Both the position numbers and the translations under genes were made by a program. A stretch of 64,000 bases of DNA from Psammoneis japonica (taxonomy: Eukaryota): positions 62,001-126,000 of the forward strand of contig QPGO01000082.1 in NCBI GenBank assembly GCA_008632985.1, read 5' to 3'. Under the pieces are notes generated by a model, which was given only the letters and a program-made list of their open reading frames with translations, searched no databases and had not been told where the DNA came from. Positions 3,025-53,310 of the stretch are shown piece after piece. Position 1 is the first letter of the stretch; each line of letters opens with the position of its first letter.

Positions 3025-4279
3025 CGATCAATCGGAGAATATAGTCCCGTCGCGGTGGATCTATAGCTCGAATGCGAGCAGATCGCGATTGCGTCAGCTC
3101 CGGATCCGCTGACGACGGCGACTCGACAAATATATCTACTTCACTCTGCATTCTTCTCAGTTGACTCTTACTCTAGAGAGTCTCGATTTCTTCTTCTCTT
3201 CAGATAAATATTCCGTTTTTCTATCTTCAATCTGTGTTCACTTGGACCTTCATCATCATCTGATTCTCTGCTCTTCAACATCAAATTTGCTGTGGGGTGG
3301 GGGTGGGGGACGATGGCGATTTTCAAATTTGGATTTCCGAAATTTGAAGATTTTTCGTCAGTCAGTCGCTCGGCAAGTCTTTTGCATTTTCGACGGTTAC
3401 CGTAAAGTGTACGTAGGAATTAGTAATAATTTGGAAAGTACCGAGTTCCCACGAATCTTTTACATACGAAATCATGGTAGTAATTCTACAAAGATACACA
3501 CAAAATGACATAGTGATTGAGAAATTTAGCAACGGTCACGAAACAAACAAATCTCTGTCTCGGAAATTCTTTCGTTTCGATCACAACTCGTCGTCTCGCA
3601 CCATGTGCTTGTTGTTTGCCAAGCCGGAATGCCGCTGTCGCCAAGGATGGCTCGCCCTTCCTCTGGATTGAGACCTTGCATTCGTTTGGCATTCCACAAC
3701 TCATTTGGCTTGATGGCGTGTTGTCTCTGGGTGGCGCAGGTGTTGCCAGTTAAGTCCGGAGGTCGGGGCAAATCGAATGCGTCTCTCCGGCCTTGAGTCC
3801 ATGTCACTCTCGTGTCTTTGAGCACAGGAAGTTGCCTGTTCGCTTGACCCATCAGGTCACGGCTGTTGAAACAGGCAGCAGCGTTCGTCTGTGAAGCAGC
3901 AAAAGCTCGCCGAGCAGATCACACTGTTGACGGAACACAGGTTTGGGGTTCTGTCGCATCATTGACATGATGCGGTGAGTCTTCACTCGCAGGGAGTGTT
4001 GATTTAGAATGCGGTTGACTCGCAAGTTTTCTTGTTGTCTCCGCAGTGCGTCCCCCCTTTTGCTTTTTTTTGAGTGACACTTTTCTCTCTGAAGATGCGC
4101 AAAAGCTTGAGCGCCATCTTTTGATGGAGCTCTTGAGGCAACGTCGCCCTGCGCAACCGATTTCTGTGTCAACTTTTGATGTTGGTGTGTCTCAATTTCA
4201 TTGAAACACTCTTTGAACCTTTACAATGGAAGTGGAAAAACTAAAAGCACCAGATGGCATTCCTCACTTGCATGCAAGT

Positions 4280-4720
4280 TGTTCCGCACACATGTCAACA
4301 GACTGCAATGACGGTCACAGCGCTTGCGATGTCGTTGCACATTGTGTTGTCGTTGTTTCACAGGATTGAAAGGTGTGAGTCGAGAACATCTGTTTCGAAG
4401 CCATTCCCTCCCATGCAAGTTCACACTTGTTGTCCGGATTAAACTTGCGACTGGCCGTTTCGCCATCTTCATTGTCTTCGGCTTGTTCCTCCAGCTCTTC
4501 GAGCCCTTCTCCAGTCCAATTCACGGATCATCATGAGTCGAGCATGACGCTTGATCGCTTTGGGCCCGCCCTCGCAGATGACACACGCCAGGCAGTGACG
4601 GGCTTTTGCACTCCAAGACACCACCCGTGATGTAGTTTTGCTGCGCTTTCAAACCAACCTTGGTCCGATGGCATGCATTGACGTCGCAAAAACTTGCACA
4701 GAAACAAGTCCATTCTATTC
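4280..4720 (-). pseudogene. PRPF3: U4/U6 snRNP protein Prp3 C-terminal fragment
   Basis: HRTKVGLKAQQNYITGGVL...CEGGPKAIKRHARLMMIR/NWTGE...NKCELAWEG match the Prp3 C-terminus (AQQ.Y.TG, EGGPKA.K.Y..LM..RI.W, NKC.LVWEG). Frameshifted, with conserved Y->H. Confidence 0.75.
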
Positions 4721-4729
4721 CCTTGTGAT

Positions 4730-5290
4730 TTCGTTGTCCAAAGGGCAATCAAGCCCCACCAATGCTTGCTGGAGTGCACTCAACTTGAACGCCAGCAGTG
4801 ACACATCGCCTTCCATCACAAATCCCATCATTTCTACTCCCACTCACATTTTGGCACCAAAGCTGTCGTAAATCTTGTCTTGCATTTTGCAGCAACCGAA
4901 AACAAGATCATCAGCACCCAAAAAATGCGGAGCGCCATCCACAAGTGTTCTCTGAGGCACCCGACACTTGATCAGCGTCGCCAGGACACAACCAAATCGT
5001 CCGAGTTGCGTTCAATCCGTGTCGTGAGCTTTCGATCACTCCACGTTCCAGCGCCACAAACAAAAGTTGGAATCCTTGTTCAAGAAACGTCCGCGCACAA
5101 GAGCTCCAACATTCAACATCCTTTCCTCGCGCTTCGTCTGGCTGACCACATTCAAGTGGTGCAGGCAAACAGGTGCCTGACACTGCCAATTGTAGAACAC
5201 AAAACAACCCCGCAGGTCCAGCTCCCACAATCACGACGCGGGGCTTGCCTGATGATTCTGTCATGCGGTTGTTTTCAATGCCCGCCTTTG
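4730..5290 (-). pseudogene. FAD/NAD(P)-dependent dehydrogenase fragment (copy 2, TpA-mutated)
   Basis: KPRVVIVGAGPAGLFCVLQLA. Collinear with 490-1020. Confidence 0.75.
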
Positions 5291-5899
5291 AGAGATTTTT
5301 GTTCTTAACATTTTCATCCAACTCCAATCGCCCCGGTTGATGGCACATTTTGAGTTTCTTGGCAACAGATGGCAACATGTTTACGTCCATAACGTGAGAA
5401 CATCCTTGACAGCACATTCTCCACAGATTGCGTCTGAGATTGAGTCGCTTGGAAAGAGCTGTCAAGACTGGGATGTAGAATGTTCTTTTCCCACTCCCAA
5501 CTGGTGTGTGTGTGTTGGGGTGTTGGATCCGTGGGAGGGTGTTGCATGCAGCATGAAGAGACGCATGACCTCCACCGGAAGATCAACCCACTTTTCTACA
5601 ACAGCAAGACGAGCTTTGCAAGTGGTGTCAGTGAACACAACTTGGCTTTGTCACTTTGGCACTGCCCATGCTGATCTTACAATGCACTGGAAGGCGGCAG
5701 CATCCGGCTCCGCCACTGCATGTGCTGGTTCTGCATCGACTGTTTTTGACATTGAGAGAGAAGTGCGTGAGAAATTCAGCAAAACACACCGCAGCCATAG
5801 ACAACTTCGGAACGTAGACTACCTTGAACGCTCTTGATGCTTTCCTGCAACTTGGAAAGCAACTTTTAAAGGCATGTCACGTCGGGCTCATCACTGACA

Positions 5900-7575
5900 T
5901 GCTCTCGGAAGTGACTCCTGGCTGGTGTGTTGAACTTTTGGCAAGCTGCAACCATGCATGCGGAATGTGCGTGCTTGATGTGGACCAACCATGGCATGTA
6001 CTTGACAAACAATTGGATCTTCCCCCCTTTACATCCTTGATGGCAAAGCCCCTAGATCGGCAATTTTCGCTCGCAACGAATCCGCCAGCTCACTGACCAT
6101 GGCCCGATGCCACCATCTCTGCCTCTGCATCCTCATTTTCCTTGTCTGCCAGAGGAACTTGAAGAAAGAGATTAAAAACCTTGTCCATTTGGTCCACGGC
6201 ATCCTTGACGGCTTTCAAGCAGACCAAATCTAACGGAGTTGCGTCACCCCCTGTCTTTTGCTTTCTTGACGCGTTTGCATTCATTCTTGGCAGCCTTGGC
6301 ACAGGCAAAGAGAGAAGCTGCCACACGTGGCATGCTCAAATCATTCACCCAGGTGGCTTTTAAATTGCAATCTCTGCAGGAACCAACTGCCAGGCAATCT
6401 CACTGTCCTTGTCAATCACACCACTAGAATCCTCCAACGTCTTGTCGGTTTGTGCAAATCTTGTCCATGGTTTGAGCTCTCCTTGGCAGCTCTCATGGCC
6501 TTTAGAGCACAACTGAGTGGATTTCTAAACTGTGAGCCTGCCACCAAGCAATGACAAGCATGGCCTTTTGTTTTGGTTCAAGACACGCCGCTCGCAAGGT
6601 CAGAAAGTTGAGGCTGAGAGCCGAGACTCTTCAACATTTTCTCATCGTTGACATTGAGAAAGCGATTGCGGATCCAGGAGTTGCAAAAGACCCTTGTCGG
6701 TGGCTCCCTGGGATTGAGCAATTTCATTCTCGTGAAGGGGAAGGTCGAATTCATTCCAAAGCAATGCACGTCGATGGTGTCACCCAAGCACTTGCGAGCC
6801 ACAGCGGAGCATTCCCGATGCCTTCCTGGCCTTCCCTCTCCCAACTCCTTTCCATCCCACGTGGCATCTTGTTCCAAATCAATGCCGGGTTTAGAAGCTT
6901 TCAATGGACAAAAGTCATTGTCATCCACTGGGCCTCTTTTTTGTCCACTGAAGAATGCCGCGATCCTCGTCAGTTTGACAGGCAAGTCTCTTGGTTCTCA
7001 GCGTGAGCACCAACTCGACAATTTCAAGCATTCTGTTGCACGGGGGTCACTTGGACCACCGGCCAATGTTGAGCGCGTCTTTCTCGTAATGGCACACAGA
7101 TCCATGTTCATGTCCTGACACTTCTCAGCAATCTTGTCATCCACGTCGCTTAGTTGCGAATGTCTCTACCGAGTGTCCCAGCATCCAAGATGTGGCAAGA
7201 CATGTTTGAGGACATCGCAATGCACGAGAGTTTGCAACGTGCACACTGTCTTAGATGGCAGGACCGCAGTGCAGCTGCTGACTGACTTTCTTTTTGAGCT
7301 TTTGAAAGGGTTCCTTTTGACGTGTTTTGAATTGTAGAGAAAAAATCGTTTTGTGAAATGGCGTGGAGTGAAGCAAGATGAAGATGTTTGATGCGGTGTC
7401 GTTTTCCATGCAATCCCATGTTTCTTTGAAAGGGCATGCAAGCAGCGGGCGACCACGCATCGATGGGAGAGGTGCCAAAGACAACAAAAAAGGCAGCGGC
7501 AAGGGACAAGCGTGACCATGGTGAACATTGCGAAATTGTGGAAGAAGGTTTGTGCGCGCACGACGATTCACTCAC
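5900..7575 (-). pseudogene. Degenerate gene-like sequence with signal-peptide-like N-terminus
   Basis: ORF at 7575 has a hydrophobic stretch (LSLAAAFFVVFG...DAW) followed by broken frames. Family not recognised. Confidence 0.3.
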
Positions 7576-10500
7576 TCACGCGCGCATTTTGGGCCATTTG
7601 GTGACGCACAGATCACAGACCAACATCGAAATGCAATGGATGGATGGACGGCCGGAGCGGATGGACCGGACGACACACGCCGCAGTCAGCCAATCCAAAG
7701 CAGCACTGGGACAGAGTGTCTTCCCATGAACCATTTGGAGCCAAAATGACCCATTGGCACGTGTTTCTGTTGATGTCATTTTGAGGTGAGGCCAATGCCG
7801 CTTCTTGCCGGTGTTGTTGCGGGACATGCTTGGCAGAGAGCATGGTCTCTCCTGCCTGTGTGGCTGCATGCCAGCAACCCAGGCAACACTCCCACTCTCC
7901 ACCGCAGCAAAGAAGCACCCAAAATTTAAAAAGGGGTTTTCCTTGATGTCATCTTCTAAAATTTGAGCACAATCAATGTGGTGCATGTGGGACATTTGAA
8001 GACATCAAACACACACCTTTTTCATCAAGCTGAGTGGCAAAATTCTTCCCCAATGGACAAAAGAAAGATGATGAGAGAGCTGTGTCTGACTCTTTCTAGG
8101 TGTTGTTTGTGTGCATTTGTTTTCAACTCACAACACTTGTGACTGGACATCATGCATGTTCTGACATTGTGGGGCTCCCTGATGAGGCCTCCCTTTTTTC
8201 AGTGTTTTTCTGTTGTTGCGTGTTGTGCCCAGCAGAGCACACCATCGCCCTTGCTTCTTCTGCACCACCACCTCATTTGTGTTGTTTTCTTGGAATGGTG
8301 CCGCAATTGTCTGAAAAATCTGCACAAGGGACGGGGCAGTCAGAAAACCTTGCACATCTGCACTGCATGTGTGTGGCACCCAACTCTGACACCAGAAGCC
8401 TTCTTTGTCACCTTGCTGCCAACTGTTGCACGTGGTGCTGGCACAGACTGAGTCTTTTTGCATTGCATGTGGATGGGACCCAGATCTGACAGAAGCCTTC
8501 TTTGTCACCTTACCAGCAACTCTGAAAATTGGCCACAAGCATTTTGTGGTCAATTGAACAAAGTGCAAAATGGCTTGCATTTGCACACAAACAAGAACGC
8601 CAGCGATGGGGTCTGGTCATTGTTGCTTGTGTGCATGTCAGAGGCAGGACAAATTGAGATGCACCACCCAACAAAGCACAAAATCATTTGCTTGCACTTC
8701 CCTTGCATGGAATGAAAAAGTGGCCAGTTTGTTTTTGTGGCCAATTTTCCTTGTCACTGGCTTGCTGCCAACTGTGGCATGCATTGCTGGTGCAGACAAA
8801 GCCTGCCAGCTGCCTGTGGTCAATGCTGTTTTGTTGGTGCTCCAAAAGAAAGGCCAAGCTTTGTTTTCTTGAAGCACCAGGCCATTGTCCTCAACAGCTG
8901 GTCCTTCATCTTTTCATCTTGCTGTGTGTCTGTTGCTTTGTCACACCACACCCCACAACCACCAACACCAACACCTGTCTCTTCTGTGGTGTGTGACAGT
9001 CCAAAATGCCTGCACTCCTGAGCCACTTTTTCCTTTTTGCAGCATTGCCCAGCACCTCAAAAGCACACATGCTCTGTCAACAGTTGAAAGCCATTGCCTC
9101 CAAATGGATGCAGCCCGTCCTGGTGATGTGGGTCCTGGCAACAATGAGTTCATCCCTCCTCTTTTGACAAGCCTCCACAGCAGCCCAGTTGCTGGACCCA
9201 GCATGCACACGCCTTTTGTCAGACAGTCCAGCCCCACTCGCTCATTTGTTTCCAGGGAAAGCCACTGTTCAACCTCATCCACAGTTTTCTTGTTCTCCCT
9301 TCTGATGATGGCATGTCTGCCCTTGGAGAGGGTGTCCCTGTGCCAGACATTCCAACAAGATTGTGCGGTGGAGATGTTGGCAACACCACTTTGTTGCTCC
9401 AGCATCTCAGCTGCTTCATGCCCTGTTGCTGACTCCACTCCTCTTCACTTTCTTTTTCTGATGACTTGAAATCCTGCTCTTGACTTGGGTGCACCTCTGC
9501 TTGGTCTTGCACAAAACTTGCATCCCAGCACAAATTTTTGCAATTCCTCCCACATGCTTGCCCAGCACCGGGCTGATTGTTTGTCCCTTCTGCGTGCATG
9601 TGCCAACACAGGATCCACTCTGACTTTTCTTGGGTCTACATTGCTGTCTCCACAGAGTCCCTGCCCTTGTCTCTACATGTGTTTTGCAGTTGATGTCATC
9701 AGGCAGGTGTGCTGACCACATGCTCATGCAATGACTGCCTTGTTGATGTCTGCATGAGTGTGACATCACCATCTCAGAAGCATTTTCAGCAGCCCACCCC
9801 ACTCTAGATCTTTTTTTGAATCTGTGTGTGCTTCAAAGCTCTGCACAGCAGCCAACCTGCTGCTGAATTTTTGCACACTTGTGCATCTCCTTGCAAAGTG
9901 GGTGCATCTTTTTTCCCCCACAGGAGGCTCCAATTGTCTCTAAGATGCCTGTGAAAACATCACGTTCAGATCTCCACAGGGTTGCCCAAATCACTTGGAT
10001 TCTTGCCAAGCTTTTCCAAGTCCTTTTGACACTCTGTCATGGCAGAGAGGAGCTGCTGGATGCCTCATGTGCGTGTTTGTTGTGTGGTGTCATGATGGGT
10101 TTCCCATGGCCATTTTTCTCCTTGGTTTGACACCAAAATGGTGTGAAAATGACAAGGCCACAAGCAACGTTCAAGCATGTGCAAGGGAAACGGATTGATG
10201 TCTAACTTTGCTGGGTGGTCGTGACTTTGTTGTGGCAATGTCCTTGGACCAACAATTCACCATGCTGCTTCCATTTCCTTCTGGTCTGGGAGCATCATGT
10301 TTCCCTTCACCCAACAACAGCGCCTCCCTTCCTTTGGACAAAAAGACAGAGCTGTCGCATGCAACAAGTGCCATGTGTTGGCGTCATTCTCTCCTGTGGT
10401 TTCGCGCAGAATTGCATTGTGCATTCCAGCTCGTTGACTGGAGTCGTCGCGTCGTTTGTTCCGGGGCACTGTAGAAGAGAAAAAACAAGAAAGAACTGCC

Positions 10501-10649: not shown

Positions 10650-12236
10650 TTAAATAGAAACAAGAGTCGTTCTGTGGCTGCTGCGCTTGCGATGATGCTT
10701 GGGAACAAAGCATTCTAGCGCTCGAAAGTGTCGCTTTGATCTCGAGGGTACTTGTTGTTGTTCTGCAGCAACAAGACTCCCTAGAGACTCCTTGACAATG
10801 TCTTGGTGATGCTTGACAAAGGGCTGCAAGTCGAATTGAAAAGGCCGATCACCAAAGTTGCAAGACACGGGATGATTTGTATCCACTCCAACGGTTGGAT
10901 ACAATCCATCATAGGGCAAAAAGCTCAAGTCCAAACCAGTCCAACCATAACCCAGAAACTTGCCATTGAGGGTAAAAAAGATGCCGCTGCAGACGTAATC
11001 GACACCACACCCCACGACGTCGCCCACTCCAAATTTGGGTCCAAAATGCTTGTAGGCCGTGCCCGAACCGTGAAAAATGCCACCGTCGTCGCCGTGATAA
11101 CCATACGAGTATCGGTCCCATCCCGGTAGGCGTGAACGAAACTTGAACCCATTGACCGACAAGCCAATCGCGACACAGTCCGTTGCCGAGGTGGAAGAAT
11201 CATCATGATTGCTGCCATGATTTAGAGGCGACGGTTCTTGGGATTCGTCGCGGCTCAAAATGGAAACTTCAAAATACGACACGAGACGCGGTGTCAAGTG
11301 TACCTTGTCATCACAATCTGGAGTCATGTAGGGAGCCACAAAGGGTTGAGAATAAGGAGACGGTTTCGATGACGACGACTTGTTGTTGTGCCTTTGTTGA
11401 AGCCAGTGGCGGAGACTTCGTCGATGGGTTGTTTCGGCAACTCCTGATGGAAAGATGGGAGGTTCCGACGTGGAACGTTTATGGTAAAAACGTTGATTGG
11501 ATGAAAGTCCTCCACGAGGCCTGGGGAGTGGATCATCGGCCCGAATCGATCGATTTTCTGTTCCAACCTGGCCCATAAATTGAACCACAGGCACTCCATC
11601 CTGCGTGAATTCCCGAAGTACGGGACTGTGTCTAGATTCCTGTGATCGTCTTGGATCACTCACCAACGTCTTGTCGTTGATACAGGAGGGATGTGACCAA
11701 CTCGCCATGGCCAATAGCACAGAGAGATTGGGTCTCGAGGATGAATGTGAAGAACTGAGAGCTGTCGGTAGGTGCATGTCGTTGGAAAACGTGAGTTTCT
11801 GCGCAGAAGTACTTGACAGCACGGGCCACTGAGCACGGCACCACTGTGTCCATACGTAGAGAGCGTCCTTGGAGAGTAACAATCGACGAAGCCTATGACA
11901 TGTCACCAGTACGGATCGAGCTTCGGAGGGCTTGAGGTACGTTAGAATGTTCAACTGAACGTCAGGGCACAAGTCACAGATGCCGAGCGAACCGCTCTTG
12001 CTCGATGAAGGAGCGAGTGCCTGCAGAGACAGCAGAGAATGCGGCGGAGTCGATGACGAGTCCTCTGTATCGCTCGTATCATAGTTGACACCGCTGGTGG
12101 AACTCGTTTCGGATGCAGTCCCATCTTCCCATGACGGTTTCGGCACTTGCATCGGATGTTTGTATGGATACGTCTTGTTTGGTGACATGCCCATGATGGG
12201 AGTCACTGCAATCTCTTTGTATTCACAAGGAGGCAT
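10650..12236 (-). CDS. F-box-like plus SPRY (RanBP9/10-type) domain protein
   Basis: 528-aa intact ORF. LCPDVQLNILTYL is F-box-like. YFEVSI, LPGWDRYSYGYHGDDG, FGPKFGVGDVVGCG, IFFTLNGKFLG, LYPTVG and NFGDRPFQFD are SPRY motifs. Confidence 0.9.
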   Translation of the reverse strand: MPPCEYKEIAVTPIMGMSPNKTYPYKHPMQVPKPSWEDGTASETSSTSGVNYDTSDTEDSSSTPPHSLLSLQALAPSSSKSGSLGICDLCPDVQLNILTYLKPSEARSVLVTCHRLRRLLLSKDALYVWTQWCRAQWPVLSSTSAQKLTFSNDMHLPTALSSSHSSSRPNLSVLLAMASWSHPSCINDKTLVSDPRRSQESRHSPVLREFTQDGVPVVQFMGQVGTENRSIRADDPLPRPRGGLSSNQRFYHKRSTSEPPIFPSGVAETTHRRSLRHWLQQRHNNKSSSSKPSPYSQPFVAPYMTPDCDDKVHLTPRLVSYFEVSILSRDESQEPSPLNHGSNHDDSSTSATDCVAIGLSVNGFKFRSRLPGWDRYSYGYHGDDGGIFHGSGTAYKHFGPKFGVGDVVGCGVDYVCSGIFFTLNGKFLGYGWTGLDLSFLPYDGLYPTVGVDTNHPVSCNFGDRPFQFDLQPFVKHHQDIVKESLGSLVAAEQQQVPSRSKRHFRALECFVPKHHRKRSSHRTTLVSI

Positions 12237-12559
12237 TGTACGATGTGATGAGTTCGTTGGGATTTGCGTATGTGTTTGAACGATGTTTGAATGAGTAGTC
12301 GTTTTTTGTGCGAAGAATGCAACGGAGTTCGGGACTGTTCATGGCGGCGGAAGTGCCGAAGACATCACTTCTGCCCGAGCAGCTGTTTGAAATCGGCGAA
12401 CATCGAAAGTGCGTTGAAATCTAAGATGGCCACAAAATGCGAGAATTTTATATAATAGCACGTTCTGTTATTTAACAACTTTCAACGTAAGTTCAACGGA
12501 GCCTCAACGCAAAGAAGGATGATGCTCATCTCTTCTCTGGATGTTTGCTTGCTAGGATG

Positions 12560-15380: not shown

Positions 15381-15429
15381 TGAGATACGGTAGATGAGCG
15401 AGTCGTCGAGTCGTCTTGTCACATTCACC

Positions 15430-43400: not shown

Positions 43401-45053
43401 TGTGACACACTTGACTGGGGCAGCATGGAACCATGGGCTGAATGGGGATTTCAAATGTCCATGTCATTGCTGTTTGTTCTTGGTTGCAACAGCATTGTCA
43501 AGAATCTTTTGTACAACCCTGGTGTGGCAAAGCATGTTCACAGCACTTGGATGCAACAAACCTCATTCTGGAGTCATGGCACCATCAAGCTCTTTGAGGA
43601 TGTGATGGGAATGGCTGAGATTGAGGGCAGAAACCAGTGTTCTGAAGGAATGATCAACAACTCAAGGGAGCAGAGAAATGCCTTGGTGAACTGGCAGCTC
43701 AGAGAGTCGGCCAAGAATTTTGTCAGCCAGCATGATGTGCCAGAGCATTCATTCCATCAAAAGCTTGCTTGACGGGAGAACAAAAGGCGTCAATTAACTG
43801 CTGGCAGTGCAGAGGATGGCAATTCAGTTGTGTCAGCAGAGACCCCCAATTACAAAGTCATCACCCAGTTGACCCAGGACCAGATGATTCAGCAACAAGA
43901 GAACGTGGCTCAGGAAATGTGGAAGCAAGGCAGTGGACACAAGCCGGATGTGAAAGAGCAAGATGGACTGCTGAGGAACAGCCTCAGCTGCATTCTGCGT
44001 AAAGTTGCTCTGGAGGCAACCACAAACAACAGCATGCGCAGCTGTTTGGACAGGCATTTTGGAAAGGACAAGAAGAGAAAAGCTGCACTCATGTCATGCC
44101 CAACATTCAACAACTTCATGAGTGGCACATTGACCACAAAGAAAGATTTGAATGAGTGTCAATTTGATCCATTGCACCCAGGGAATGGCAACTCCATGAT
44201 GCTGTTGTCTTCTTGATCTGATGACAGCAGCTCATTGCCACAAGTGGAAGACTTGGCCATTGCACACTGCTTCTTTCCCACAAAAGGTGACTCCAAAAGG
44301 CTGTCATCTGACAACAAAGAATTGCACATGCCAAACCTGGAAGCCAGAGAAAAGCAGGAAGCAGCCATTGCCACAGCGGGGATCTTCTTGCACTTGCCTT
44401 GAATCCCTTTTGTTGTGCAACACAAGTTCAGACCTGAAGAAGCAAAAGGGGAGCTGCTGTCATCATCCAACAACACTGACAACTCAGACAAATGACCAAT
44501 GGCAGTGCAAGAGGTTGCCGGAGATGCCTTGCTGATGATGTCCCTGGGCAACAAGGCTCCACCTCCATGAGCACCCTTTCTAGCCTGACAATTGCAACAA
44601 GGCATTGTCATGGTGAACAAGTTGTCAGACAATTGAAAAATGAGAATTGAATTGTGACACAGCAGATGCAAGTGCTGCAGCAGGGTCACAATCTCACTCA
44701 CATGCACTTTGAGTCATGACAGGATGAGCAAAATTGTTGCTCAACATTGGGGCTGTTGCAAGAGCAGCATTCAGTTGACAGTTGGAATGCCACAAACGTG
44801 TTGTCGTGAGAGGGTTGGCACATGAAAGTGAACACAAAGAATGATGGAGCGCATCATGTGGATCTTTTGTGGCACTCCTTTAAAGAAGCCCATTTTTTTT
44901 AAAATGGGGTGACGTCAGCGTTTTGCAAAAAAAGAGGATTCATTTTAAAAAGACAAAAGAATTTTTTTTTAAAGAAGCACAAAAGAACTGTGACATTGTG
45001 CTCATGATCACATGCAAAAGTGCACAATGTAAACAAAAATCAATTCCGGAGCA

Positions 45054-46082
45054 GGAACACTGACAAAAATGTTGCCAACATGGAAAACCGCGACATTTTG
45101 TACATCCGTGTGACATTTGCGCACACTCTTGGCAATCTGGTTGATTTGTTGCTTGAAACCATCAAACAATGTTTGATTGCCAATTTTTTTGTGACACTCT
45201 GACAGTGTTGCTAAGATCAAACATTTTTCTCAAGTGATCTGGAGTGCTCCTAAGTGTTGCATTGTGTGCATGGAAGTTTCAGAGAAGGGAGACACGCAGA
45301 GACAAATGGAGACAAACAGAAACAAATGGAGACATTTGGTGACACACATGGAGACAAATGTGGATTTGGCAACTCATGTGGAGACAAATGGAGACAACAA
45401 TTCTTTTCATTCAGAAATGCATTGCTGCATTTCGGTTTGCAGAGCTGCTGTGTCACTGCTGTGTGACCACTTGCACCACATGGATGGCATCAGAGACAGC
45501 GCATCTTGTCATGCAGAAATTGAATGTTTCTGTTCACAACAACAATTGCTGCTGCCAGACCTGGCAGCTGCCAGAAGCTGGAGCAGCTGCCGGCACTCCA
45601 CTCCAGCCTGTGGCTGGCGGCGGAGAGCAGAGCTGCTGCACCACCACTCTGCAGTGCAGTGCTTGCACTGTGTGTCGAGCGATGGCCATCTTCTGTCAAT
45701 CTGTTGATGTTTTTGTTGTGTCATCACATGGGGGGGAAAACAAAAACTGTCTCCATGTGGTCGCCAAATGTCTTCATGTGTCTCCACTTGTCTCCACTGC
45801 CAACTGTCTCCATTTGTCTCCTTTTGTCTCCCTTTGCATCCCTCTCCCTTCTTCCAAAAACTCACATGCACACAAAACAACACTTGGGAACACTCTAGAT
45901 TGCTTGAGTCCAGCTGGTGATTTTGGCAACATCGTCGGAGTGTCACATGAAAAAGGGTGATTCATGTTTGTTTAATGGAGCAATTTAACAAACCAACCAG
46001 ATTGAAACAATGCATTTGATTGTCCCACGCAGATGCAAAATGTTGCATTTTTCTGTGTTTGCAACATTTTTGTCAGCGTTCC
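45054..46082. mobile_element. Degenerate foldback element with long inverted arms
   Basis: ggaacactgacaaaaatgttgc at 45054 pairs with gcaacatttttgtcagcgttcc ending at 46082. Inner arms at about 45228-45400 (ggagacaaat repeats) pair with about 45745-45910 (tgtctcc repeats). Confidence 0.75.
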
Positions 46083-47170
46083 AGAAGCCAAGGACACTTG
46101 TGGGACAGGCCAGCCATGTGCTGGACCAGAACCAAGCATCAAAGGCACCATCCACACAATGAGCATGCTCTGGGAGCAACACGAATTTGAAGATGACTGC
46201 GGATTTCTTTTTGTTGACGCCTCCAACGGGTTCAACAAAGAGAACAGGGTTCTAATGCTGCACATTGTAAGACACCTTTGGCCAACTGGTGCAAGGTTAC
46301 CTTTAACAGCTGCAAGCATTGGAGCATTTTGATCATCTGTGGGAACTTTGGAAGTGCCTTCATTTTGTTCAGCAAAGAAAACATCACGCAGGGCAACCCA
46401 CTTGGTGTGGCAGCATGCGGGCCAGGACTTCTTCCATTGGTCTGTGAGATGAATGAACATTTCAAAGACGCACTCACCCCTTGGCATGCCAATGACTCCA
46501 CAGCAGTGGGAAAATTCAACATCCTGTAGGAATTTTTCATGACTCTCCAAGTTGAAGGCCCCAAACACAGATGCTGCCTTGCCGACAACTCCAAGAACAT
46601 CCCAGCAGTCCCAGAACACAACCTGGAAAATGCTGGAGCATGCTTTGGAGATCTGGGCTTTACCATCAAGTCTGGAAGCCACCACCTTGGAGGCTTTGTT
46701 GGAGAGACGGATGCACGTGACCATTGGTTGGTGGAAAAAGCCGAGTCATGGGCCTTGGTCATCCAGGACTCACCAGCAATTCCCACCCTCAGACTGCCTG
46801 TGCTGGTCTGCAGAAGTCCCTGTGACACCAGCAGCAATGTGTCCAGCATGCAGCAAAGGACTGTGGTGAATTTTTTGCCAATGCAGAGTGTGTGATGTAG
46901 CACAACTTTCTGCCGGCGCTAATTGGTGAGACCCCAGCTGACAACAACCCAAGACCAGCCCCACCCGCCCTCCCAATCAAATTTTTGGGACTGTTCATCC
47001 CTCTTCCAACAGAGTCTGCAGCTCACAACTGGGAAGTGAGCAATCTCACATGCTCCCACATGATTGACTCACTCTGTGGCCACTCCCAGTTCTCCTCTGC
47101 AGTCAACAAGGACACCATGTGCAGAGTGAAACAAGAAGCAGCTGATCAAAAAGTTAAAGCACGCAGGGAG
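46083..47170 (+). mobile_element. Non-LTR retrotransposon RT relic (CRE/early-branching type)
   Basis: QPCAG...GTIH, FLFVDASNGFN..NR, TQGNPLG, PWHAND (from WYADD), HHLGGFVG. Multiple frameshifts. Confidence 0.8.
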
Positions 47171-47177
47171 ACATCTG

Positions 47178-47465
47178 TTCTTTTTAAATCAGTGGATTTC
47201 ATGTCTGGCCATTGTGTGTTCTTTGTGCTTGCAAGATTTGTTGTCTTGCCATTGTCCATTCTTTTTGACTCAGCACATTTCATGTCTGGCCGTCATGCAT
47301 TCTTTGCACTTGCAAGATTTTTCATCTTGCCGTCGTCCATTCTTTTTGACTCAGTGCATTTTGTGTCTGGCCATTGTGCGCTCTTTGCGCGTTCTTTGAG
47401 ATTTTTCCTTTTGCCATCTTTTGTTCTTTTTGAATCAGCAGGTTTTTTGTCTGACCATTGTGCGA
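47178..47465. repeat. Minisatellite, unit about 81 bp, about 3.5 copies
   Basis: ttctttttga.tcag...tgtctggcc...caagattt recurs at about 47178, 47259, 47340 and 47423. Confidence 0.8.
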
Positions 47466-49099
47466 CAATTGATTGTCTGGTTGTCGTCCACAGTCCATGC
47501 ACTCTTGCCAGTTGCAAGGTGTCCATTTCGTTCTTTCTCTCTCTCTTAGAAAAAAATGCCAAAACTCAAATTTGAGCACAGTGGTCACTCGTTACTCCAA
47601 ATGACATCAACAAGCCATCCGTTGGTGCAAACACACAAATGGCCATGTGGGTGAAGAACAAGCATGCAGGAATTTGTGTCAATTCAAGACCCGCCCTGTT
47701 GTCCTGGAGATTGTTCAGATGCAAGGAGAGTGTGACTTCAGTCAGGTCACTGCAAACAAAATTTTTGTGCCCTTCCTCACTGAAATTGCACTTGTGAAGT
47801 TTCCTTTCTGGCCTTGGTGAATGCAAAGTGGACACAGATGACCGGAAGAACCAATGTGCCATTCTTGCTCAGTCCATCTTCAGTCTGTCTGCCAGTCACC
47901 AATGCTTGTCATCGTCCCTCCATTGTCCAGCAGTCCAGAAGGCTGCAAACACTTTGCATGCAACTGTTGACCACATGCATGGCGAACAAACTGAGATGCT
48001 GTGTGGTTGCATTGGAGCAGCTTTGTGCTCGTCTCTGTGTGGAACCTCTGTGGTGGTGGGGCTCACATGGGAGCACGCTGTGTTGCCGGATTTGACGTGC
48101 CTGAGAGCAGTGACAGCAAAGGCAGCCAATGGACAAAAACTCTGAAAGACCTGGTGTTTTCAAGCACATCCTTTCCAAATGAATCTGTCACTTCCATTGA
48201 CGGGAAGCCGCATGATGTCGAGGTGCGCTCTGCTTTGTCCCCATTCCACCATCACAAAAGTTGTGATGTGGATGGAGGTGCAATTCTTCACATCGTGTTG
48301 GACATGGGCTCAGTTTGATCAATGCAGATGCCACTTGAACGGGCAGGAATGACATGCATTGCATTGGAGGAAGACTGCTGATGCAATGGATTGAGCTGTG
48401 ATGTCAGGATCAATGCATCTGGAACAATTTGTGTTGTGACTGCAGACCAAGCAAAGCTTCTTCACAGCAATGATGGATTGTCTTGTCCTTGCTGTGTCAA
48501 GTGGGTGAAAGGTAAAAAAGGATTGTGGTGGCATCAGCAGACTCTCTGTGGCAAGGGCTAACTCACAGCAAAGCTCCCTGGAAATTGTGGTGCACAACAA
48601 AGGTTTCCAGATGCAAGAGCTGCAGGCTTCTAAACGGAGTGAGTCTAGACAACCATCTCAGTCATCTCTTTGTTGGAATGAGCAAGTCTTTGAATTTTTC
48701 AAGCAAGGAAATTTAGATGGATTGAAGCATGCAGTTGTGATGGGTTTCAAACAGATGCAGTGTGGTTGAATGTTGAAATGCTGTGCAAGACTGGCTCGCC
48801 TTTGTTGCTCGGCACCGGGACTTGCTCAGAATGGATTTGACCCAAAGCAGGAATTGGACAAACACGGCGCATTGGTGGTTTCTGGGCTGCTGGATCAGGA
48901 AAATTAGATGGTCTCAAGTGTTTGACAGAGAAGTGTGGATGCTCTGCTGATGTGGCTCAACGCAGACACCCCCCATTCATCCAAAAATGGTGCCTGGGGC
49001 CTGCAGTGCAGGAGGTGCACCATTGCCACACATCAAGTTATGCACTGATGATGGCTCTTTGCAACAACCCACATCTCAAGGCAAAATGAACTGGGGGGG

Positions 49100-52000
49100 A
49101 GCCCTCGCAACCCCCTGAACCCTTTTGCCCAACTCTTGGACACCCTCAGAAAAAGCTTGACTTTGCTTTGTTGCAAAAGGCAGGGGCAATGACCCAAGTG
49201 ATTTCTGATGTTGGGGTGCTGTGCTGACTCATGTTGGCACTGCATCTCTCTCCTTTCATCCTGGCTGGCATTGCATTGCATGCTGGTTGGAATGACATGG
49301 CCATGCAGCCTTTTGATGCCAGTGCTCCTTCTAGGTGGTGCATCTCCTGCCAAGAATCCACCTCCCTCCCCACTGTTGATCCTAGGAGCAAGTTTGCCAA
49401 AGCTTTGGCCAATCTCATCCACCTGGTCCTGCTCAATTTGAGAAGGCCATGACACAAGTGTTGAGTTCAGTGCCTTCTCATTGACCTCTGCAAGTGCTCC
49501 ATTGACCACAACATCTCTTGCCTGCTTGTTCAATCCCAAAAAAATGCCCTCTGGTGTGTTGGCAGGCATGGTGCAAATGCAAGAAGGATGGAAAGGTCAT
49601 CTTGGGCAACTCTTTGACCTCCTGCAAACATGGAATCATGCATCATGAAGATGGCACTCAATGCATCTTTCTTTGTGACAGCTCTTTGTTTGTCGTCAAG
49701 CCCAGTTGGAGTCCCAATGCTTTCCCATGTACAATGCTGTGCTCAGCTGTGACAACATCTCACCTCAAGGCCTTTGCACATGGTGCGGTGCTCTGATTGA
49801 GCAGGCTGTGTCATGTGCTTTCCACATTCACTCACACTTTGGTGCTTTGTCCCGGGCATTTGTGGCAGGTCTTTCACATCTGGAAATGCCAAAACAGACA
49901 ATCTTCCTCAAGGCATGACTCCACAACCTTTGGAACAGATTGCTCTCACAATTGTTTTGCACCTCCAGAAGCAAGACTGGTCTTTCCCCCCTGCAGGCTC
50001 CAAGTTCCCTGACATTTTTCACCAACATCATGGAGATGGTCATTTGGTCCTCAAGACAACTCTCTTTTTTGACTGCCCATCTGGCACAATCATCTTCATC
50101 ATGATCTCATCCAAGACAACACAACCATCCTCAGCCACTGTGCTCTCTTCAAGGATTTTCTTCGAGCATGAGCCATTGTCTCCAACGTTGAAGTGTCAGA
50201 CATTTCTGGTGAACTGGGTGTCTTCATCAGCAACATGAAAAAAACACACATTCATTGCAAGACTGCCAATGCTTGCAAGGACAAAAACAAGACCAACCAT
50301 CTCAAGGCCAAGAAGATTTTTGAGACCCTGACTGTCCTTCTCAATGAACCAGATGGTCCTGCACAGCATCTTGACACTCCTCCTGGTTCCAATCATTGGA
50401 TTTTGAACCTGAGTGACTGCTCCCCCATGAAATGCATGCAGCGGTGCACTGCTTCATCAACTGACCCAACCACCACAGTCACTCTAAAGAGAGCTGGTGC
50501 TGGCTCTGGGAGTTGAGGGTGCTGCTTTTTCTGTTGAGCCTCTTGAAGATGCTGTGGAAGCATTGGTCAGTGAATTGACTGCTGTTGAGATCCCCAAAGA
50601 TGACACACCTCTCATGCAATGCATTGCATGGACTGTGAACTGTTGGTGTCTGCCAGATCAAACAGAACACTGCCACTGTAGATTGCTGACTGTGTCTGGC
50701 ATGCAATGGAGTGCACAAGATTGCACAATGTCATGTCTCAAACAGTGCTGCCTCTCTTTGTTTGCATGTGATCCCCCACTTCTGTCAATTCACTCAACAT
50801 GAGCAGCACACACTCAGGATGAATCTGCATTGCAGACAAACAACCTTTTGATTTATTTTGGTTTGAGCCATCATCAAGTTTGGGCACATGAACCTGCCCC
50901 CAGCTCTTTCTGCTCTGAACACAACAAATGAACATGAAGTGACTGTGGAAGAGGGTCACATTGACTCATCACCAATCACTTCCATGCCTCTTTTTCTGTC
51001 AAACACAGTTGCTCATGATGTTCATCAAGCTCCTGCCAGCCCTCCTGATGTGATTGGCCCCATGTGGAACACTCATGTTCATCTGCAGAGAGTGCAATTC
51101 ATGCACTTCTCATTGGCACCAATCTTCCTGTCCTCCAATTTTTGGTGTTTCTGATCATTGTCCTCACATCAAGAGCTCCATTCCTTTGAAGGACCAAGCA
51201 AGACTCTGCTCCAATTGCTGTCACTGCTGGCAAGACAGATGACCTTGCTTTCTCTTTGTGCCTTTGGACATCATGTGTGGGCTTGGATGCCTGGTCATTG
51301 ATTTGCCAAGTTGCAGACTCACTCTAAGAAGGGTGCATCCCTTGGATGCTTGCTGAACATCACCACAAAAAGAACATTGTTTGGTGGGACCCCTCTGCTG
51401 ACAAGGTCAAGATCACCAAGCATGTTTGTTTTGATGAAAATGTGAATGATTTGCCCATGGATGAGCCACCTTCAAATGTTGTTCACCTTCAATGCATGGA
51501 ACATGGCCTTTCCTTCCCTGTGGACAAACCAGCAGAGACCACTGTTCCTGAGTTTTCAACACCTGTCAATCCATTTGCAAGATGACTCTTGTGTGTGCTG
51601 TGAAATGTTGTCAGTGCAATTGGACCCGCAATCTTGATTTGCCAAAATCTGGTGTCATGGATCGGGTTTGTGCATCTGGAGTCAAGCCAGGCAGACCTGC
51701 TTTTGTCTTTTCTCACACTCCCCATGCACCCCCCCCCCCCCCCACACCACACACACACACACACAAACACAACAAGCTTGCTGGGGCCTGCATTGTCCCC
51801 ATCTGTCAACAAGAGTGAGGTTTGCATGGTTTCAGGCACAAGAGTGAGGTTTGCATGGTTTCAGGCACCAAGTCAGAACTGCATCGTGTCTTTTTGATGA
51901 CTCAATGTCATCTTTTGACATCATCATCTTTTGTGCCCAAATGTCACTTGGATTCATGCCAACTCCATCATGCCATGGACCATGGAGGATCACATGAGGC

Positions 52001-53310
52001 ATGGGTGCAGATTGTCTGATTGATGACAAGGCTTGCATCCCTGAGGTCTCTCTTGAAGAGGTTCATGAAATGGCACCCATGCTCTGTCCCAAGGATGAAT
52101 TTTCTGAAGGTGCCATTCTGGATGTCACTTTTTGTGCACACCTCAATGCTGGCTCTTCCCACACCATTGCTGAGATGGAAGTGGCCCAAGACTGTCCAAC
52201 TCATGCTCATCTTTGTGAACTTGCTGCTTGACCAGAATGGCAAGCAGAAGAATGAAAATGGCTGGATCAACTCCATGCTCTCAGCATGTGTGAACCACCA
52301 CTGCAACCTTGGCCACGGGGTGCTCATGTCATGCAAACACACAGGGAACACAATCTCAAGCTAGCTGGTGAATGTCATTCTCCCAACAATGTGGAGATGA
52401 ATCTTAGAAAGTGATTCCAGCTGTCCACAAACTCACATTCACTCACTCTTTTGAGTTGATCAGCTGACTCAATGTCCTTTTTTTGCCTTGAGCACAGGCA
52501 TGGTTCATTGTGTCTGTTCTGGAGATTTCCACAAGGCATGTGCTCACTCACCTCCTCCAACCACTCAAGTTCATGTTGCCATTGACAATGCCCATCGTGA
52601 GTGGCACAAGGCATGGTTCAGAAAAGACATGAATCCCAGCTGTGCTGTGCCTGCTCTCTGTGCTCTTTAAAGACACCACAAGGCAAGTTGTTTTGTTGGA
52701 AAAGCACATTGGTGTGGCACTCTCTGATGCCAAGTCATTGTTTTGCAATGCTGCTCATGACAAGTGCATTTGTGCTGGGACTTGTGAAGGTGCCAAGGGG
52801 CTTTTTTGTTGTGACAGATTGATGATTTTTCTCTTGCATGTCCAAATGAGAACATTGCTGTTGCAATTTTTATCCTGTGTCATGGCAAAGAGCTTCAGCC
52901 ACTCAATGAAGAGACACCTCCTTTTCAGTGCCTTGGACTTTGTGTTGGATTCAACGAACTTGATGTGATCCAGAATGATGGGGCCCCATCACCATCAATG
53001 TTGCAGCTGCATGAGCAGGTCTTGCAAACCCATGTTTCTACATTTGGAACAAAATGGGTTTGAAGGAGTCTGTCATGGATTTCAAGGCCACTCCCATCCC
53101 AGTTGATTGCAGTGCAGTGTCATTTGGCAACTCTGGGACCTCAAGAAGGTGCTGATGCTCGTGCTGAGCTGGAAACCGACCACAAGTTTCTGCACTGCTC
53201 TCTTTTGGGCAAATTAATTTTTGCACACCACACTTGTTGCCGGTTTGACATCGGGCACCCCATTGTCACACTGTCCAAGTTCTCCGAGGCTCCCACTGAC
53301 ATCCATTGTG
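49100..53310 (+). mobile_element. Ty1/Copia (CoDi-like) LTR retrotransposon pol relic
   Basis: Post-integrase NIVWWDP...VKITKHVCFDE..NDLP. RT region ACAHSPPP...VAIDNAHREWHK...PALCAL and RQIDDF. Also SLLGKLIFAH..CRFDIGHPIVTLSKFS. No LTRs found; 5' limit approximate. Confidence 0.8.

What the first reader, a model, noticed from the sequence alone, without database searches (positions are those of the whole stretch)
3530..53310. Repeat-targeted TpA->TpG/CpA (A-to-G) hypermutation: candidate RIP-like genome-defence system
Seen: five blocks (3.5-10.5, 12.6-15.4, 17.2-22.1, 35.4-36.1, 41.2-53.3 kb) have lost nearly all TA dinucleotides, while the host genes between them keep normal TA. Affected DNA is class-independent (MULE, LINE, Copia, foldback, host-gene copies). 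Conserved Tyr codons become Cys (TAY->TGY) or His (TAY->CAY), so both strands are hit. The MULE ORF has 3 Tyr in 961 aa against 18 in 528 aa for the SPRY gene. Established: fungal RIP is C->T (mainly CpA->TpA) and creates TA, and 5mC decay hits CpG; neither removes TA. Inference: an adenine-directed mutagen acts on silenced or repeated DNA. Candidates are a TadA/ADAT-like DNA deaminase, a Pol eta-like WA->WG polymerase, or deamination of a modified adenine. I know of no described pathway of this kind, but could not search the literature.
Basis: partly seen in the sequence, partly recalled or inferred. Interest (0 to 1): 0.95.

Follow-up and report, generated by a model that had tools for sequence, protein, structure and literature searches.

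The report
TpA-erasing hypermutation of diatom insertions
In this diatom DNA, five inserted or duplicated segments have had nearly every TA converted to TG or CA while neighbouring genes are untouched, the same odd mutation process so far reported only in one unrelated alga.

Summary
Five sharply bounded blocks (27.75 kb) hold 139 TA where 1124 are expected at the rate of the flanking host DNA. The lost TA (985) plus lost CG (963) equal the gained TG+CA (1897).

Direction is shown three ways:
- Of 28 majority-Tyr columns of a transposon ORF, the window copy has Cys 12, His 8, Tyr 1.
- All 3 conserved Tyr of a V-ATPase proteolipid pseudogene are Cys or His.
- In a TA-normal paralogue, 12 of 19 TA are CA/TG in the block copy.

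All 44 relatives of the transposon ORF from metagenomes are TA-normal.

Loss depends on flanks: RTAY is erased and YTAR partly survives. The host is a diatom.

A 2026 preprint measured TpA->TpG/CpA hypermutation live in integrated viruses of the chlorarachniophyte Bigelowiella natans. Eight literature searches found no diatom report.

Not shown here: dependence on repetition, adenine rather than thymine as the target, and the MULE, LINE and Copia labels.

Verdict: a new member of a very recently described kind, with the enzyme unknown.

The parts
3551..10450 (.). Block 1: composite TA-depleted segment. The left part (to about 8000) has CpG o/e about 0.5-0.9. The right part (about 8000-10450) has CpG o/e about 0.1-0.3.
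   Evidence: TA o/e 0.10 (44 TA) and CG o/e 0.54. TA+CG deficit is 410 against TG+CA excess 412. An X1 contig supports 4701-10885.
4737..5278 (-). TA-poor copy of an FAD/Rossmann-type oxidoreductase-like gene fragment, paralogue of 507-1032.
   Evidence: 79% identical to 507-1032. Of the 19 TA in the normal copy, 8 are CA and 4 are TG here, and 1 is kept. A GxGxxG-type motif is seen in the ORF translation. The Pfam hit is only weak (HI0933_like, E=0.026).
507..1032 (-). TA-normal paralogue outside the blocks. It serves as the unmutated comparison copy.
   Evidence: 19 TA against 3 in the block copy over the aligned stretch.
6581..6997 (-). Degraded cysteinyl-tRNA synthetase-like fragment inside block 1.
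   Evidence: Pfam tRNA-synt_1e E=1.7e-17. 37-48% identity to 150 listed representatives, with conserved catalytic columns changed.
12501..15350 (.). Block 2: TA-depleted segment.
   Evidence: TA o/e 0.06 (11 TA) and CG o/e 0.36. Deficit 214 against excess 175.
14536..15240 (-). V-ATPase proteolipid (subunit c)-like pseudogene copy inside block 2.
   Evidence: 28 homologues at E<=1e-5, named V-type ATPase proteolipid. All 3 conserved Tyr columns are Cys, Cys and His, and the copy has 0 Tyr against 2-7 in homologues. A contig of run X2 at depth 972 matches 14586-15134 with 44 differences, so an expressed paralogue exists.
17251..22300 (.). Block 3: TIR-bounded DNA element carrying a 972-codon open frame.
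   Evidence: TA o/e 0.10 and CG o/e 0.68. X1 contig depth is about 200-270 against 50-63 nearby, so there are several copies at 90% identity or more.
17196..17237 (+). Left terminal inverted repeat of the block 3 element.
   Evidence: 42 bp, 97.6% complementary to 22054-22095. Sequence read. No clean target-site duplication was seen.
22054..22095 (-). Right terminal inverted repeat.
   Evidence: TA depletion runs on about 240 bp beyond it.
19154..22069 (+). Large ORF of the element (P0001). It is still open but heavily missense-mutated.
   Evidence: 3 Tyr, 43 Cys and 38 His in 972 aa. Homologues at 31-49% identity occur in 44 metagenome loci. Of 28 majority-Tyr columns the window copy has C 12, H 8, F 4, Y 1 and other 3.
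35401..36200 (.). Block 4: small TA-free, strongly C-rich segment. Its membership is uncertain.
   Evidence: 1 TA. CA excess is 55 but TG excess is -6. GC skew is -0.35 to -0.50. No Pfam family was found.
41151..53300 (.). Block 5: 12-kb TA- and CpG-depleted segment of unidentified, probably old mobile DNA.
   Evidence: TA o/e 0.06 and CG o/e 0.19. Deficit 1024 against excess 1000. Six-frame read-through found no Pfam family at E<=0.05, and the only hint was SH3_retrovirus at E=0.13.
10653..12338 (-). Spared host gene (F-box/SPRY) lying between blocks 1 and 2.
   Evidence: Pfam SPRY 1.4e-16. 18 Tyr. TA o/e 0.51. Covered by run X2 contigs.

Best explanation
A locally targeted mutation process has changed TpA to TpG or CpA in this diatom lineage, on both strands. 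It acted in place on particular inserted or duplicated segments. These are a TIR transposon, decayed unidentified insertions, and gene fragments lying inside them. It ran almost to completion, while host genes a few hundred bases away were spared.

In the same segments, ordinary decay of methylated CpG to TpG/CpA removed about as many CG. That is why G+C did not change.

The TpA process acts on each strand on its own and reads one flanking base. The A:T pair in 5'-T-A-Y-3' (opposite strand 5'-R-T-A-3') is hit fastest, so RTAY sites vanish and YTAR sites linger.

I take this to be the same kind of process that was measured live in integrated viruses of Bigelowiella natans. The most likely chemistry (inferred, not shown) is enzymatic deamination of adenine to hypoxanthine in DNA that the cell has marked as silent or foreign. 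Hypoxanthine is then read as G.

The process cannot make stop codons. It disables genes by missense changes (Tyr to Cys or His, among others) and by erasing TA-rich signals, and it leaves long false ORFs.
For: Shown:
- 139 TA are observed against 1124 expected in the blocks.
- Only TA and CG fall and only TG and CA rise among the 16 dinucleotides.
- TA+CG deficit is 1947 against TG+CA excess 1897, and the balance holds within each block.
- TG is about equal to CA in the four large blocks.
- Polarity: of 28 majority-Tyr columns in 11 dereplicated homologues, the window copy has C 12, H 8, F 4, Y 1 and other 3. Control residues are kept at 35-78%. With a stricter cut, 0 of 7 Tyr are kept, while F is kept 11 of 11 and W 8 of 8.
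- In the V-ATPase pseudogene, 0 of 3 conserved Tyr are kept (C, C, H).
- In the paralogue pair, 12 of 19 TA became CA/TG.
- All 44 metagenome relatives have TA o/e 0.43-0.70, and 0 of 628 1-kb windows fall below 0.25.
- Edges are sharp.
- Survival by flank is RTAY 0.014, mixed 0.099 and YTAR 0.387. This holds in the four blocks with enough surviving TA; block 4 keeps a single TA and cannot show it (chi-square P=3e-27). CpG loss shows no such dependence. An additive one-flank-per-strand model fits all 10 site classes.
- A paralogous contig shows TG-versus-CA double differences at 4545-4546 and 4676-4677. This is as expected if copies were mutated independently.
- In the less decayed blocks TA loss outruns CpG loss about 3-5 fold (my arithmetic).

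From print:
- TpA->TpG/CpA at about 6e-7 per site per generation in integrated NCLDV and virophage DNA of B. natans. That genome also has 124 TpA-poor, CpA+TpG-rich clusters, and transposon Pfams are enriched in its low-TpA CDS (Results and Discussion read).
- Diatom transposons carry DNMT5a-dependent CpG methylation (PMC9998398, passages read).
Against: - No enzyme, base modification or rate was observed here. The whole genome is not held.
- The target base (A or T) cannot be told from sequence.
- Which flank is read is unresolved. 4 of 6 non-palindromic site classes favour T-A-Y and 2 favour the other reading.
- A preference for T then C at +1 does not match natural ADAT2/3 substrates, which as I recall have G, C or A at position 35. 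It also does not match ADAR's recalled 3' preference.
- Whether other copies of the block 3 element share the same TG/CA states could not be read, because the difference table was cut. If they do, one mutated copy may have amplified afterwards.
- The mass balance assumes that the ancestral composition was like the host's.
- Block 4 is strand-asymmetric and may be something else.
- No viral genes were found, so the link to the B. natans case rests on the signature alone.
Confidence: 0.6

Rival explanations
1. The process is thymine-directed. A TET/JBP-type dioxygenase or similar enzyme modifies T in 5'-R-T-A-3' within silenced DNA, for example to 5-hydroxymethyl- or 5-formyl-uracil. The modified base sometimes pairs with G, giving T->C, which is the same TpA->CpA/TpG outcome.
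For: TpA is self-complementary, so every count here fits equally well. The favoured context is an immediate-neighbour motif in this reading too, R-T-A. In dinoflagellates, another SAR lineage, a TET/JBP homologue makes 5hmU in DNA. There 5hmU is enriched in repeats and linked to transposon silencing (PMC11572971, abstract and passages read).
Against: No 5hmU or TET/JBP is known to me in diatoms, and I did not test this. The passages I read give no TpA motif for 5hmU. By my recollection 5hmU itself is only weakly mutagenic.
Confidence: 0.2
2. It is a by-product of repair. Frequent deamination of methylated CpG in these segments recruits error-prone patch repair (Pol eta type), which mutates nearby A:T pairs.
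For: TA loss and CpG loss occur in the same blocks. They correlate across 53 windows of 500 bp (Spearman 0.50, P=1e-4).
Against: AA/TT are not depleted (o/e 1.24 and 1.22 against 1.15 and 1.11 in host). Pol eta's WA motif would hit AA as well. Products are almost only transitions, since the mass balance is 1897 of 1947. In block 3, 175 TA were lost against 71 CG, so TA loss outruns its supposed trigger. CpG loss lacks the flank rule of TA loss.
Confidence: 0.07
3. No hypermutation took place in this genome. The segments were TA-poor when they arrived (foreign or element-specific composition), or selection removed TA, for instance to avoid a TA-cutting enzyme or TA-seeking transposons.
For: Edges coincide with the ends of inserted DNA. 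The block 3 element is multi-copy, and I could not see whether its copies share states.
Against: - Conserved Tyr are replaced by exactly the two single-transition products.
- Copies of host-type genes are affected, while a paralogue in the same window is not.
- All 44 relatives are TA-normal.
- Non-coding DNA and all six frames are affected alike.
- TG-versus-CA double differences occur between copies.
Confidence: 0.05
4. RNA editing was fixed by retrotransposition. An ADAR-like enzyme edits A after U in transcripts, and the edited RNA is copied back into DNA.
For: A 5' U/T neighbour is the ADAR preference cited in the preprint's Discussion. Block 4 shows a one-strand pattern.
Against: - The best-defined block is a TIR DNA element.
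- The four large blocks are strand-symmetric.
- Non-transcribed-looking DNA is affected.
- ADARs are a metazoan family by my knowledge.
- No reverse transcriptase was found.
Confidence: 0.03

Closest known systems
TpA hypermutation of integrated NCLDV and virophage DNA in Bigelowiella natans (Mettrop et al., bioRxiv 10.64898/2026.01.13.699255, 2026; outline, Results and Discussion read)
   Same: Changes are exclusively TpA->TpG and TpA->CpA. [quoted passage not shown] The long-term footprint is TpA-poor, CpA+TpG-rich clusters, with transposon Pfams enriched in low-TpA CDS.
   Different: - The host here is a diatom (stramenopile), not a rhizarian.
- The targets here are a TIR element, unidentified insertions and host-type pseudogenes, and no viral genes were seen.
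- Erosion is near complete (o/e 0.03-0.10, against 0.45 for their NCLDV region).
- CpG is co-depleted here. The preprint's main text never mentions CpG, flanking context or other species.
- Here there is only a footprint, with no measured rate.
Fungal repeat-induced point mutation (RIP)
   Same: It is a transition-only, sharply bounded mutational wrecking of mobile or duplicated DNA that leaves a dinucleotide signature.
   Different: RIP is C->T, mostly CpA->TpA. It creates TA and stop codons. Here TA is destroyed and TAA/TAG stops fall from 35 to 7.6 per kb. RIP hits both copies of a duplication, whereas here one copy is spared.
Decay of methylated CpG in silenced transposons (diatom DNMT5a-dependent methylation, PMC9998398)
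   Same: It explains the CpG loss and about half of the TG/CA gain in the same blocks.
   Different: It cannot remove TA, and it shows no RTAY/YTAR flank rule.
Deaminase-based restriction of mobile and viral nucleic acids (APOBEC3 on retroviral cDNA, ADAR on dsRNA) and tRNA adenosine deaminases TadA/ADAT2 (general knowledge and the preprint's Discussion)
   Same: It is editing used as defence. The A is preceded by U/T, as at tRNA position 33-34, and as in ADAR's 5' preference.
   Different: Those act on single-stranded DNA or on RNA and leave strand-biased footprints. Here both strands of resident double-stranded DNA are hit equally. No natural enzyme with this activity is identified.

Membership tests
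B. natans-type TpA hypermutation of integrated DNA | Changes are TpA->TpG and TpA->CpA transitions only. | tested here: met
   Among the 16 dinucleotides only TA (plus CG) falls and only TG and CA rise. The mass balance is 1947 against 1897. Tyr goes to Cys or His. In the paralogue pair, 12 of 19 TA changed.
B. natans-type TpA hypermutation of integrated DNA | Confined to integrated, non-host segments, with surrounding genome normal. | tested here: met
   Five blocks have sharp edges, and host segments have TA o/e 0.51-0.87. The blocks hold a TIR element and pseudogene fragments. No viral genes were seen.
B. natans-type TpA hypermutation of integrated DNA | A directly measured de novo rate about 1000-fold above background. 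| not testable with these tools
   Only contigs of one sample were available. Of 10 differences in the single-copy part of block 1, 2 are at TpA and 7 at CpG.
Fungal RIP | C->T transitions, mainly CpA->TpA, which raise TA. | tested here: not met
   TA o/e is 0.08 in blocks against 0.61 in host, and CA rises.
Fungal RIP | Triggered by duplication, with both copies mutated. | tested here: inconclusive
   Copy 507-1032 keeps 19 TA while its paralogue keeps 3. Short host repeats keep their TA, but they are under 300 bp or highly diverged. Genome-wide copy numbers are not available.
5mC-driven CpG decay | CpG deficit matched by TpG/CpA gain in methylated repeats. | tested here: met
   The CG deficit is 963. 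It accounts for about half of the TG+CA excess and for none of the TA loss. Methylation itself was not measured.
Pol eta-type WA->WG mutagenesis | AA as well as TA is targeted, with transversions mixed in. | tested here: not met
   AA and TT o/e are 1.24 and 1.22 in blocks against 1.15 and 1.11 in host. The products balance as transitions.
ADAR/ADAT-type adenosine deamination | A->G with a 5' U/T neighbour. | tested here: inconclusive
   The pattern fits, but T->C on the other strand fits equally. The flank order T>C>G>A at +1 (or its mirror) does not match my recollection of ADAR or ADAT2/3 substrates.
ADAR/ADAT-type adenosine deamination | The substrate is RNA, so a genomic footprint needs retro-copying and is strand-biased. 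| tested here: not met
   A TIR DNA element is affected. TG is about equal to CA in the four large blocks.
MULE transposon (label given to block 3) | Mutator-type transposase domains (Pfam MULE / Transposase_mut / SWIM). | tested here: not met
   No Pfam family was found in the window ORF, nor, at E<=1, in 3 intact homologues. A PDB profile search gave nothing. CxC..CxH and CCHC patterns are visible in alignment A1, but that is only my reading.
MULE transposon (label given to block 3) | Long TIRs with a 9-10 bp target-site duplication. | tested here: inconclusive
   42-bp TIRs are present. No clean duplication is seen next to them.

The most novel reading that the evidence does not exclude
A dedicated DNA base-editing defence is shared by distant SAR algae (diatoms and chlorarachniophytes). 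A still unidentified enzyme reads 5'-T-A-Y-3' one strand at a time. It rewrites the A:T pair to G:C in resident double-stranded DNA that the cell has marked as foreign or silent. It works several times faster than methyl-CpG decay and with base-pair-sharp borders. It would be the first natural adenine (or thymine) editor of genomic DNA used as genome defence, and diatoms would offer a way to find it.
Probability: 0.45. Interest if true: 0.85.

Novelty: new member of a known kind. Interest (0 to 1): 0.65.

Why it matters
The only report of TpA-directed hypermutation is a 2026 preprint on one chlorarachniophyte. Its enzyme and targeting rule are unknown. Finding the same footprint run to saturation in a diatom points one of two ways. 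Either the process is old and widespread in SAR algae, or it arose more than once.

This window adds facts a mechanism must explain:
- strand-independent action with an RTAY over YTAR flank rule;
- borders sharp to tens of bases;
- sparing of an expressed gene 150-250 bp away;
- sparing of one paralogue;
- a rate above that of methyl-CpG decay.

There are practical consequences. Such DNA loses TAA/TAG stops, so gene finders will call long false ORFs. Its proteins (Tyr to Cys or His) escape Pfam. Repeat finders will miss copies that have diverged in this way.

A natural editor of A:T pairs in double-stranded DNA would also interest base-editing research.

Tried and rejected
- Whole genome: not held. 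No genome-wide scan, family consensus or proteome search for deaminases was possible.
- Pfam on 98 block ORFs of 100 aa or more: only the CysRS fragment passed.
- Six-frame read-through of block 5, with X at stops: nothing at E<=0.05. SH3_retrovirus at E=0.13 was the only hint of a Copia-type remnant. The Copia-like motifs I saw by eye near 51.4 kb and 53.2 kb are unsupported.
- Pfam on three intact homologues of the block 3 ORF, and a PDB profile search: nothing.
- TIR search in five related metagenome loci: none flank the ORF, so the relatives may be cut contigs or host genes.
- CysRS fragment for Tyr polarity: only 1 conserved Tyr column, which is S in the window copy, so it is uninformative.
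- Which flank is read (-2 or +1): the product-excess test split 4 to 2, in all blocks and in the low-CpG-loss blocks alike.
- Sequencing runs: no RNA holder listed. Three runs of one sample and one study were kept as contigs only. Run X2 shows intron-like CT..AC joints, and its contigs lie on host genes but hardly on the blocks. It is not on record as RNA, so I draw no conclusion on expression. The difference table was cut (396 rows not shown), so copy-to-copy states in block 3 and the 44 differences of the V-ATPase paralogue could not be read.
- Earlier findings of this scan: nothing on this genome or this signature.
- Literature: eight searches found the B. natans preprint and no report for diatoms. 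That preprint's supplementary tables (mutation contexts) are closed, so I could not compare flank rules.

Full report
OBSERVATION

In 1-kb windows, TA observed/expected (o/e) drops from 0.4-0.97 to 0.01-0.21 in five stretches. TG+CA rises to 1.4-1.97, and G+C hardly moves.

A two-state segmentation on TA counts places the blocks at 3551-10450, 12501-15350, 17251-22300, 35401-36200 and 41151-53300. Together they hold 139 TA in 27,750 bp. At the rate of the other 36,250 bp, 1124 would be expected (log10 P = -303).

Edges are abrupt. TA runs densely up to 3527 and the next is at 3751. There is none between 41149 and 41590. After 53215 it is dense again from 53313.

Among the 16 dinucleotides only TA (o/e 0.08 against 0.61) and CG (0.40 against 1.00) fall. 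Only TG (1.74) and CA (1.65) rise. AA and TT are not depleted.

A 6186-nt contig of a public run covers 4701-10885 with 11 differing letters. The bases are therefore not an assembly artefact, although that run may be the assembly's own source.

HOST AND CONTENT

The host segments carry ordinary eukaryotic genes: APC5, a proteasome ATPase, adaptin, PLAC8, and the plastid-type DUF2499 and DUF3593. All named relatives of the APC5 frame are diatoms, namely Attheya, Cylindrotheca, Epithemia, Skeletonema and Thalassiosira. The best hit is only 52% identical, so this is a diatom that is not itself in the protein collection.

Block 3 is bounded by 42-bp inverted repeats at 17196-17237 and 22054-22095. 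It has about four times the contig depth of its surroundings. Its large frame has homologues at 31-49% identity in 44 metagenome loci.

Neither that frame nor three intact homologues match any Pfam transposase family. I also saw no clean target-site duplication. I therefore call it a TIR element of an uncharacterised family, not a MULE.

The only Pfam-supported content elsewhere in the blocks is a degraded cysteinyl-tRNA synthetase fragment. A homology search adds a V-ATPase proteolipid pseudogene in block 2. Self-comparison adds an oxidoreductase-like fragment in block 1, whose paralogue lies outside the blocks at 507-1032.

Block 5 (12 kb) gave nothing in six-frame read-through. LINE and Copia are not confirmed.

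DIRECTION OF CHANGE

I dereplicated the homologues of the block 3 frame to 11 sequences. In 28 columns a majority of them have Tyr. In those columns the window copy has Cys 12, His 8, Phe 4, Tyr 1 and other 3. Control residues are retained at 35-78%. With a stricter cut, 0 of 7 Tyr are kept, against 11 of 11 Phe and 8 of 8 Trp. Cys (TGY) and His (CAY) are exactly the two single-transition products of TAY. The three Tyr codons that survive sit in CTAC, TTAC and CTAC.

In the V-ATPase pseudogene all three conserved Tyr columns are Cys, Cys and His. The copy has no Tyr at all, against 2-7 in 27 homologues.

In the paralogue pair, 12 of the 19 TA of the outside copy are CA (8) or TG (4) in the block copy, and one is kept.

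All 44 relatives are TA-normal (o/e 0.43-0.70). None of 628 1-kb windows in those loci falls below 0.25. The family is therefore not TA-free by nature.

Between copies there are TG-versus-CA double differences: 4 in the paralogue pair, and at 4545-4546 and 4676-4677 in a paralogous contig. This is what independent resolution of one ancestral TA or CG in two copies gives.

TWO PROCESSES, ONE PRODUCT

Taking host frequencies as the starting point, the blocks lack 985 TA and 963 CG and have 1897 extra TG+CA. The balance holds within each block: 410/412, 214/175, 246/262, 53/49 and 1024/1000. The A:T->G:C changes at TA and the G:C->A:T changes at CG are equal in number, which explains the unchanged G+C.

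CpG loss varies (o/e 0.68 in block 3, 0.19 in block 5), while TA loss is near complete everywhere. The two correlate across 53 windows (Spearman 0.50). I read the CpG loss as ordinary decay of methylated CpG. CpG methylation of transposons by DNMT5a is documented in a diatom (PMC9998398, passages read).

In the less decayed blocks the log loss of TA is about 3-5 times that of CG (my arithmetic). The TpA process is therefore the faster one.

FLANK RULE

Surviving TA are not random. Relative to host DNA, RTAY sites survive at 0.014 (5 against 454), mixed sites at 0.099 and YTAR sites at 0.387. The order is the same in each of the four large blocks (chi-square P = 3e-27). CpG loss shows no such rule (0.37-0.48).

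By site class, ATAT survives at 0 of 113, GTAC at 0.04, CTAG at 0.21 and TTAA at 0.70.

A model in which each strand is hit independently, at a rate set by one flanking base, fits all ten site classes with four numbers: 2.9, 1.6, 0.8 and 0.1. This speaks for an agent that reads about three bases on one strand. It speaks against one that recognises the 4-bp palindrome as a unit.

By symmetry the flank is either -2 of the A (A>G>C>T) or +1 of the A (T>C>G>A). A product-excess test favoured +1 in 4 of 6 classes and -2 in 2, so this remains open.

TARGETING

The F-box/SPRY gene sits 150-250 bp from blocks on both sides and is TA-normal. One paralogue of the oxidoreductase-like fragment is spared. 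The V-ATPase pseudogene has a parent at about 92% identity that appears at high depth in a run with spliced contigs.

A 220-bp inverted repeat with 97.7% identical arms, and a 269-bp tandem repeat, both in host DNA, keep their TA. Most of blocks 1 and 2 are single-copy at 90% identity or more.

Repetition as such is thus not shown to be the trigger. Place or mark (inserted, silent DNA) fits better. This is inference.

MECHANISM

The four large blocks are strand-symmetric (TG about equal to CA). This argues for action on resident duplex DNA and against RNA editing followed by retro-copying. Pol eta-type WA mutagenesis is excluded by the intact AA/TT and by the transition-only balance.

Two chemistries remain that sequence cannot separate:
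- deamination of A in T-A-Y, which I prefer;
- modification of the paired T in R-T-A. A TET/JBP enzyme that marks repeats with 5hmU exists in dinoflagellates (PMC11572971, abstract and passages read).

The process cannot create stops. TAA+TAG fall from 35 to 7.6 per kb, and frames of 100 codons or more rise from 2.3 to 3.5 per kb. Inactivation is therefore by missense changes and loss of TA-rich signals, and the DNA fills with false ORFs.

WHAT IS KNOWN

Mettrop et al. (bioRxiv 10.64898/2026.01.13.699255; outline, Results and Discussion read) found the following in mutation-accumulation lines of Bigelowiella natans:
- 231 of 302 nuclear mutations fall in an integrated NCLDV and a virophage.
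- All but one of these are A->G or T->C, and they fall on TpA.
- The rate is about 6e-7 per site per generation, seen in 11 of 15 lines.
- The genome holds 124 TpA-poor, CpA+TpG-rich clusters.
- Transposon Pfams are enriched in low-TpA CDS.
- They propose an ADAT2-like DNA deaminase.

Their main text does not mention CpG, flanking context, diatoms or other species. Eight literature searches found no such report for diatoms.

The finding is therefore not categorically new. It places the process in a second, distant algal lineage and adds the flank rule, the sharp borders, the coupling with CpG decay and the state of saturation.

OPEN POINTS

- Block 4 gains only CA and is 40% C on the plus strand. 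It may be a one-strand version of the process or something else.
- I could not see whether the copies of the block 3 element share their TG/CA states.
- No genome, methylome or rate data were available.

Noticed in passing
window 35401-36200: This TA-free segment differs from the others. It has 40% C and 15% G on the plus strand. It gains CA (+55) but not TG (-6), as if both TA and CG had been changed on one strand only. Its 244-codon frame is rich in Pro, His and Thr and has no Pfam match.
   Followed up: partly
window 3001-4334: Summed contig depth in run X1 is 2080-5960 here against 50-63 for unique DNA. A high-copy repeat therefore straddles the left edge of block 1. Its TA-normal part (to 3527) and TA-free part (from 3551) both show high depth. 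No tandem repeat was found.
   Followed up: partly
window 27811-28336: An inverted repeat lies in host DNA, with arms 97.7% identical over 220 bp and normal TA content (16 and 17 TA). It is a foldback that the process has not touched.
   Followed up: partly
window 15386-15850, 53313-53480, 3398-3527, 40910-41021: Very TA-dense tracts lie directly against several block edges (for example 52 TA in 465 bp). They may be gene-flanking AT-rich DNA or preferred insertion sites.
   Followed up: no
window 16383-16479 and 16653-16770: Contigs of run X2 skip 95 and 116 bases with CT..AC ends. These are two introns of a minus-strand gene (PLAC8-like frames 15911-16991). The run behaves like RNA although it is not recorded as such.
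   Followed up: no
window 4701-10885: There are ten single-base differences between the window and the run's contig inside single-copy block 1. Seven are CpG<->TpG/CpA and two are TpA<->TpG/CpA. In the neighbouring host gene, 5 of 8 differences are transversions.
   Followed up: partly
window 25653-26328 and 26619-27285; 56693-57251: A 676-bp internal repeat (76% identity) lies inside the 954-codon frame that carries PT repeats. A 269-bp tandem duplication (88% identity) lies further on. Both have normal TA.
   Followed up: no
all five blocks: TAA and TAG have nearly vanished, so stop-to-stop frames of 100 codons or more occur in several overlapping frames (98 in 27.75 kb). Automatic annotation of such DNA will report many false genes.
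   Followed up: yes
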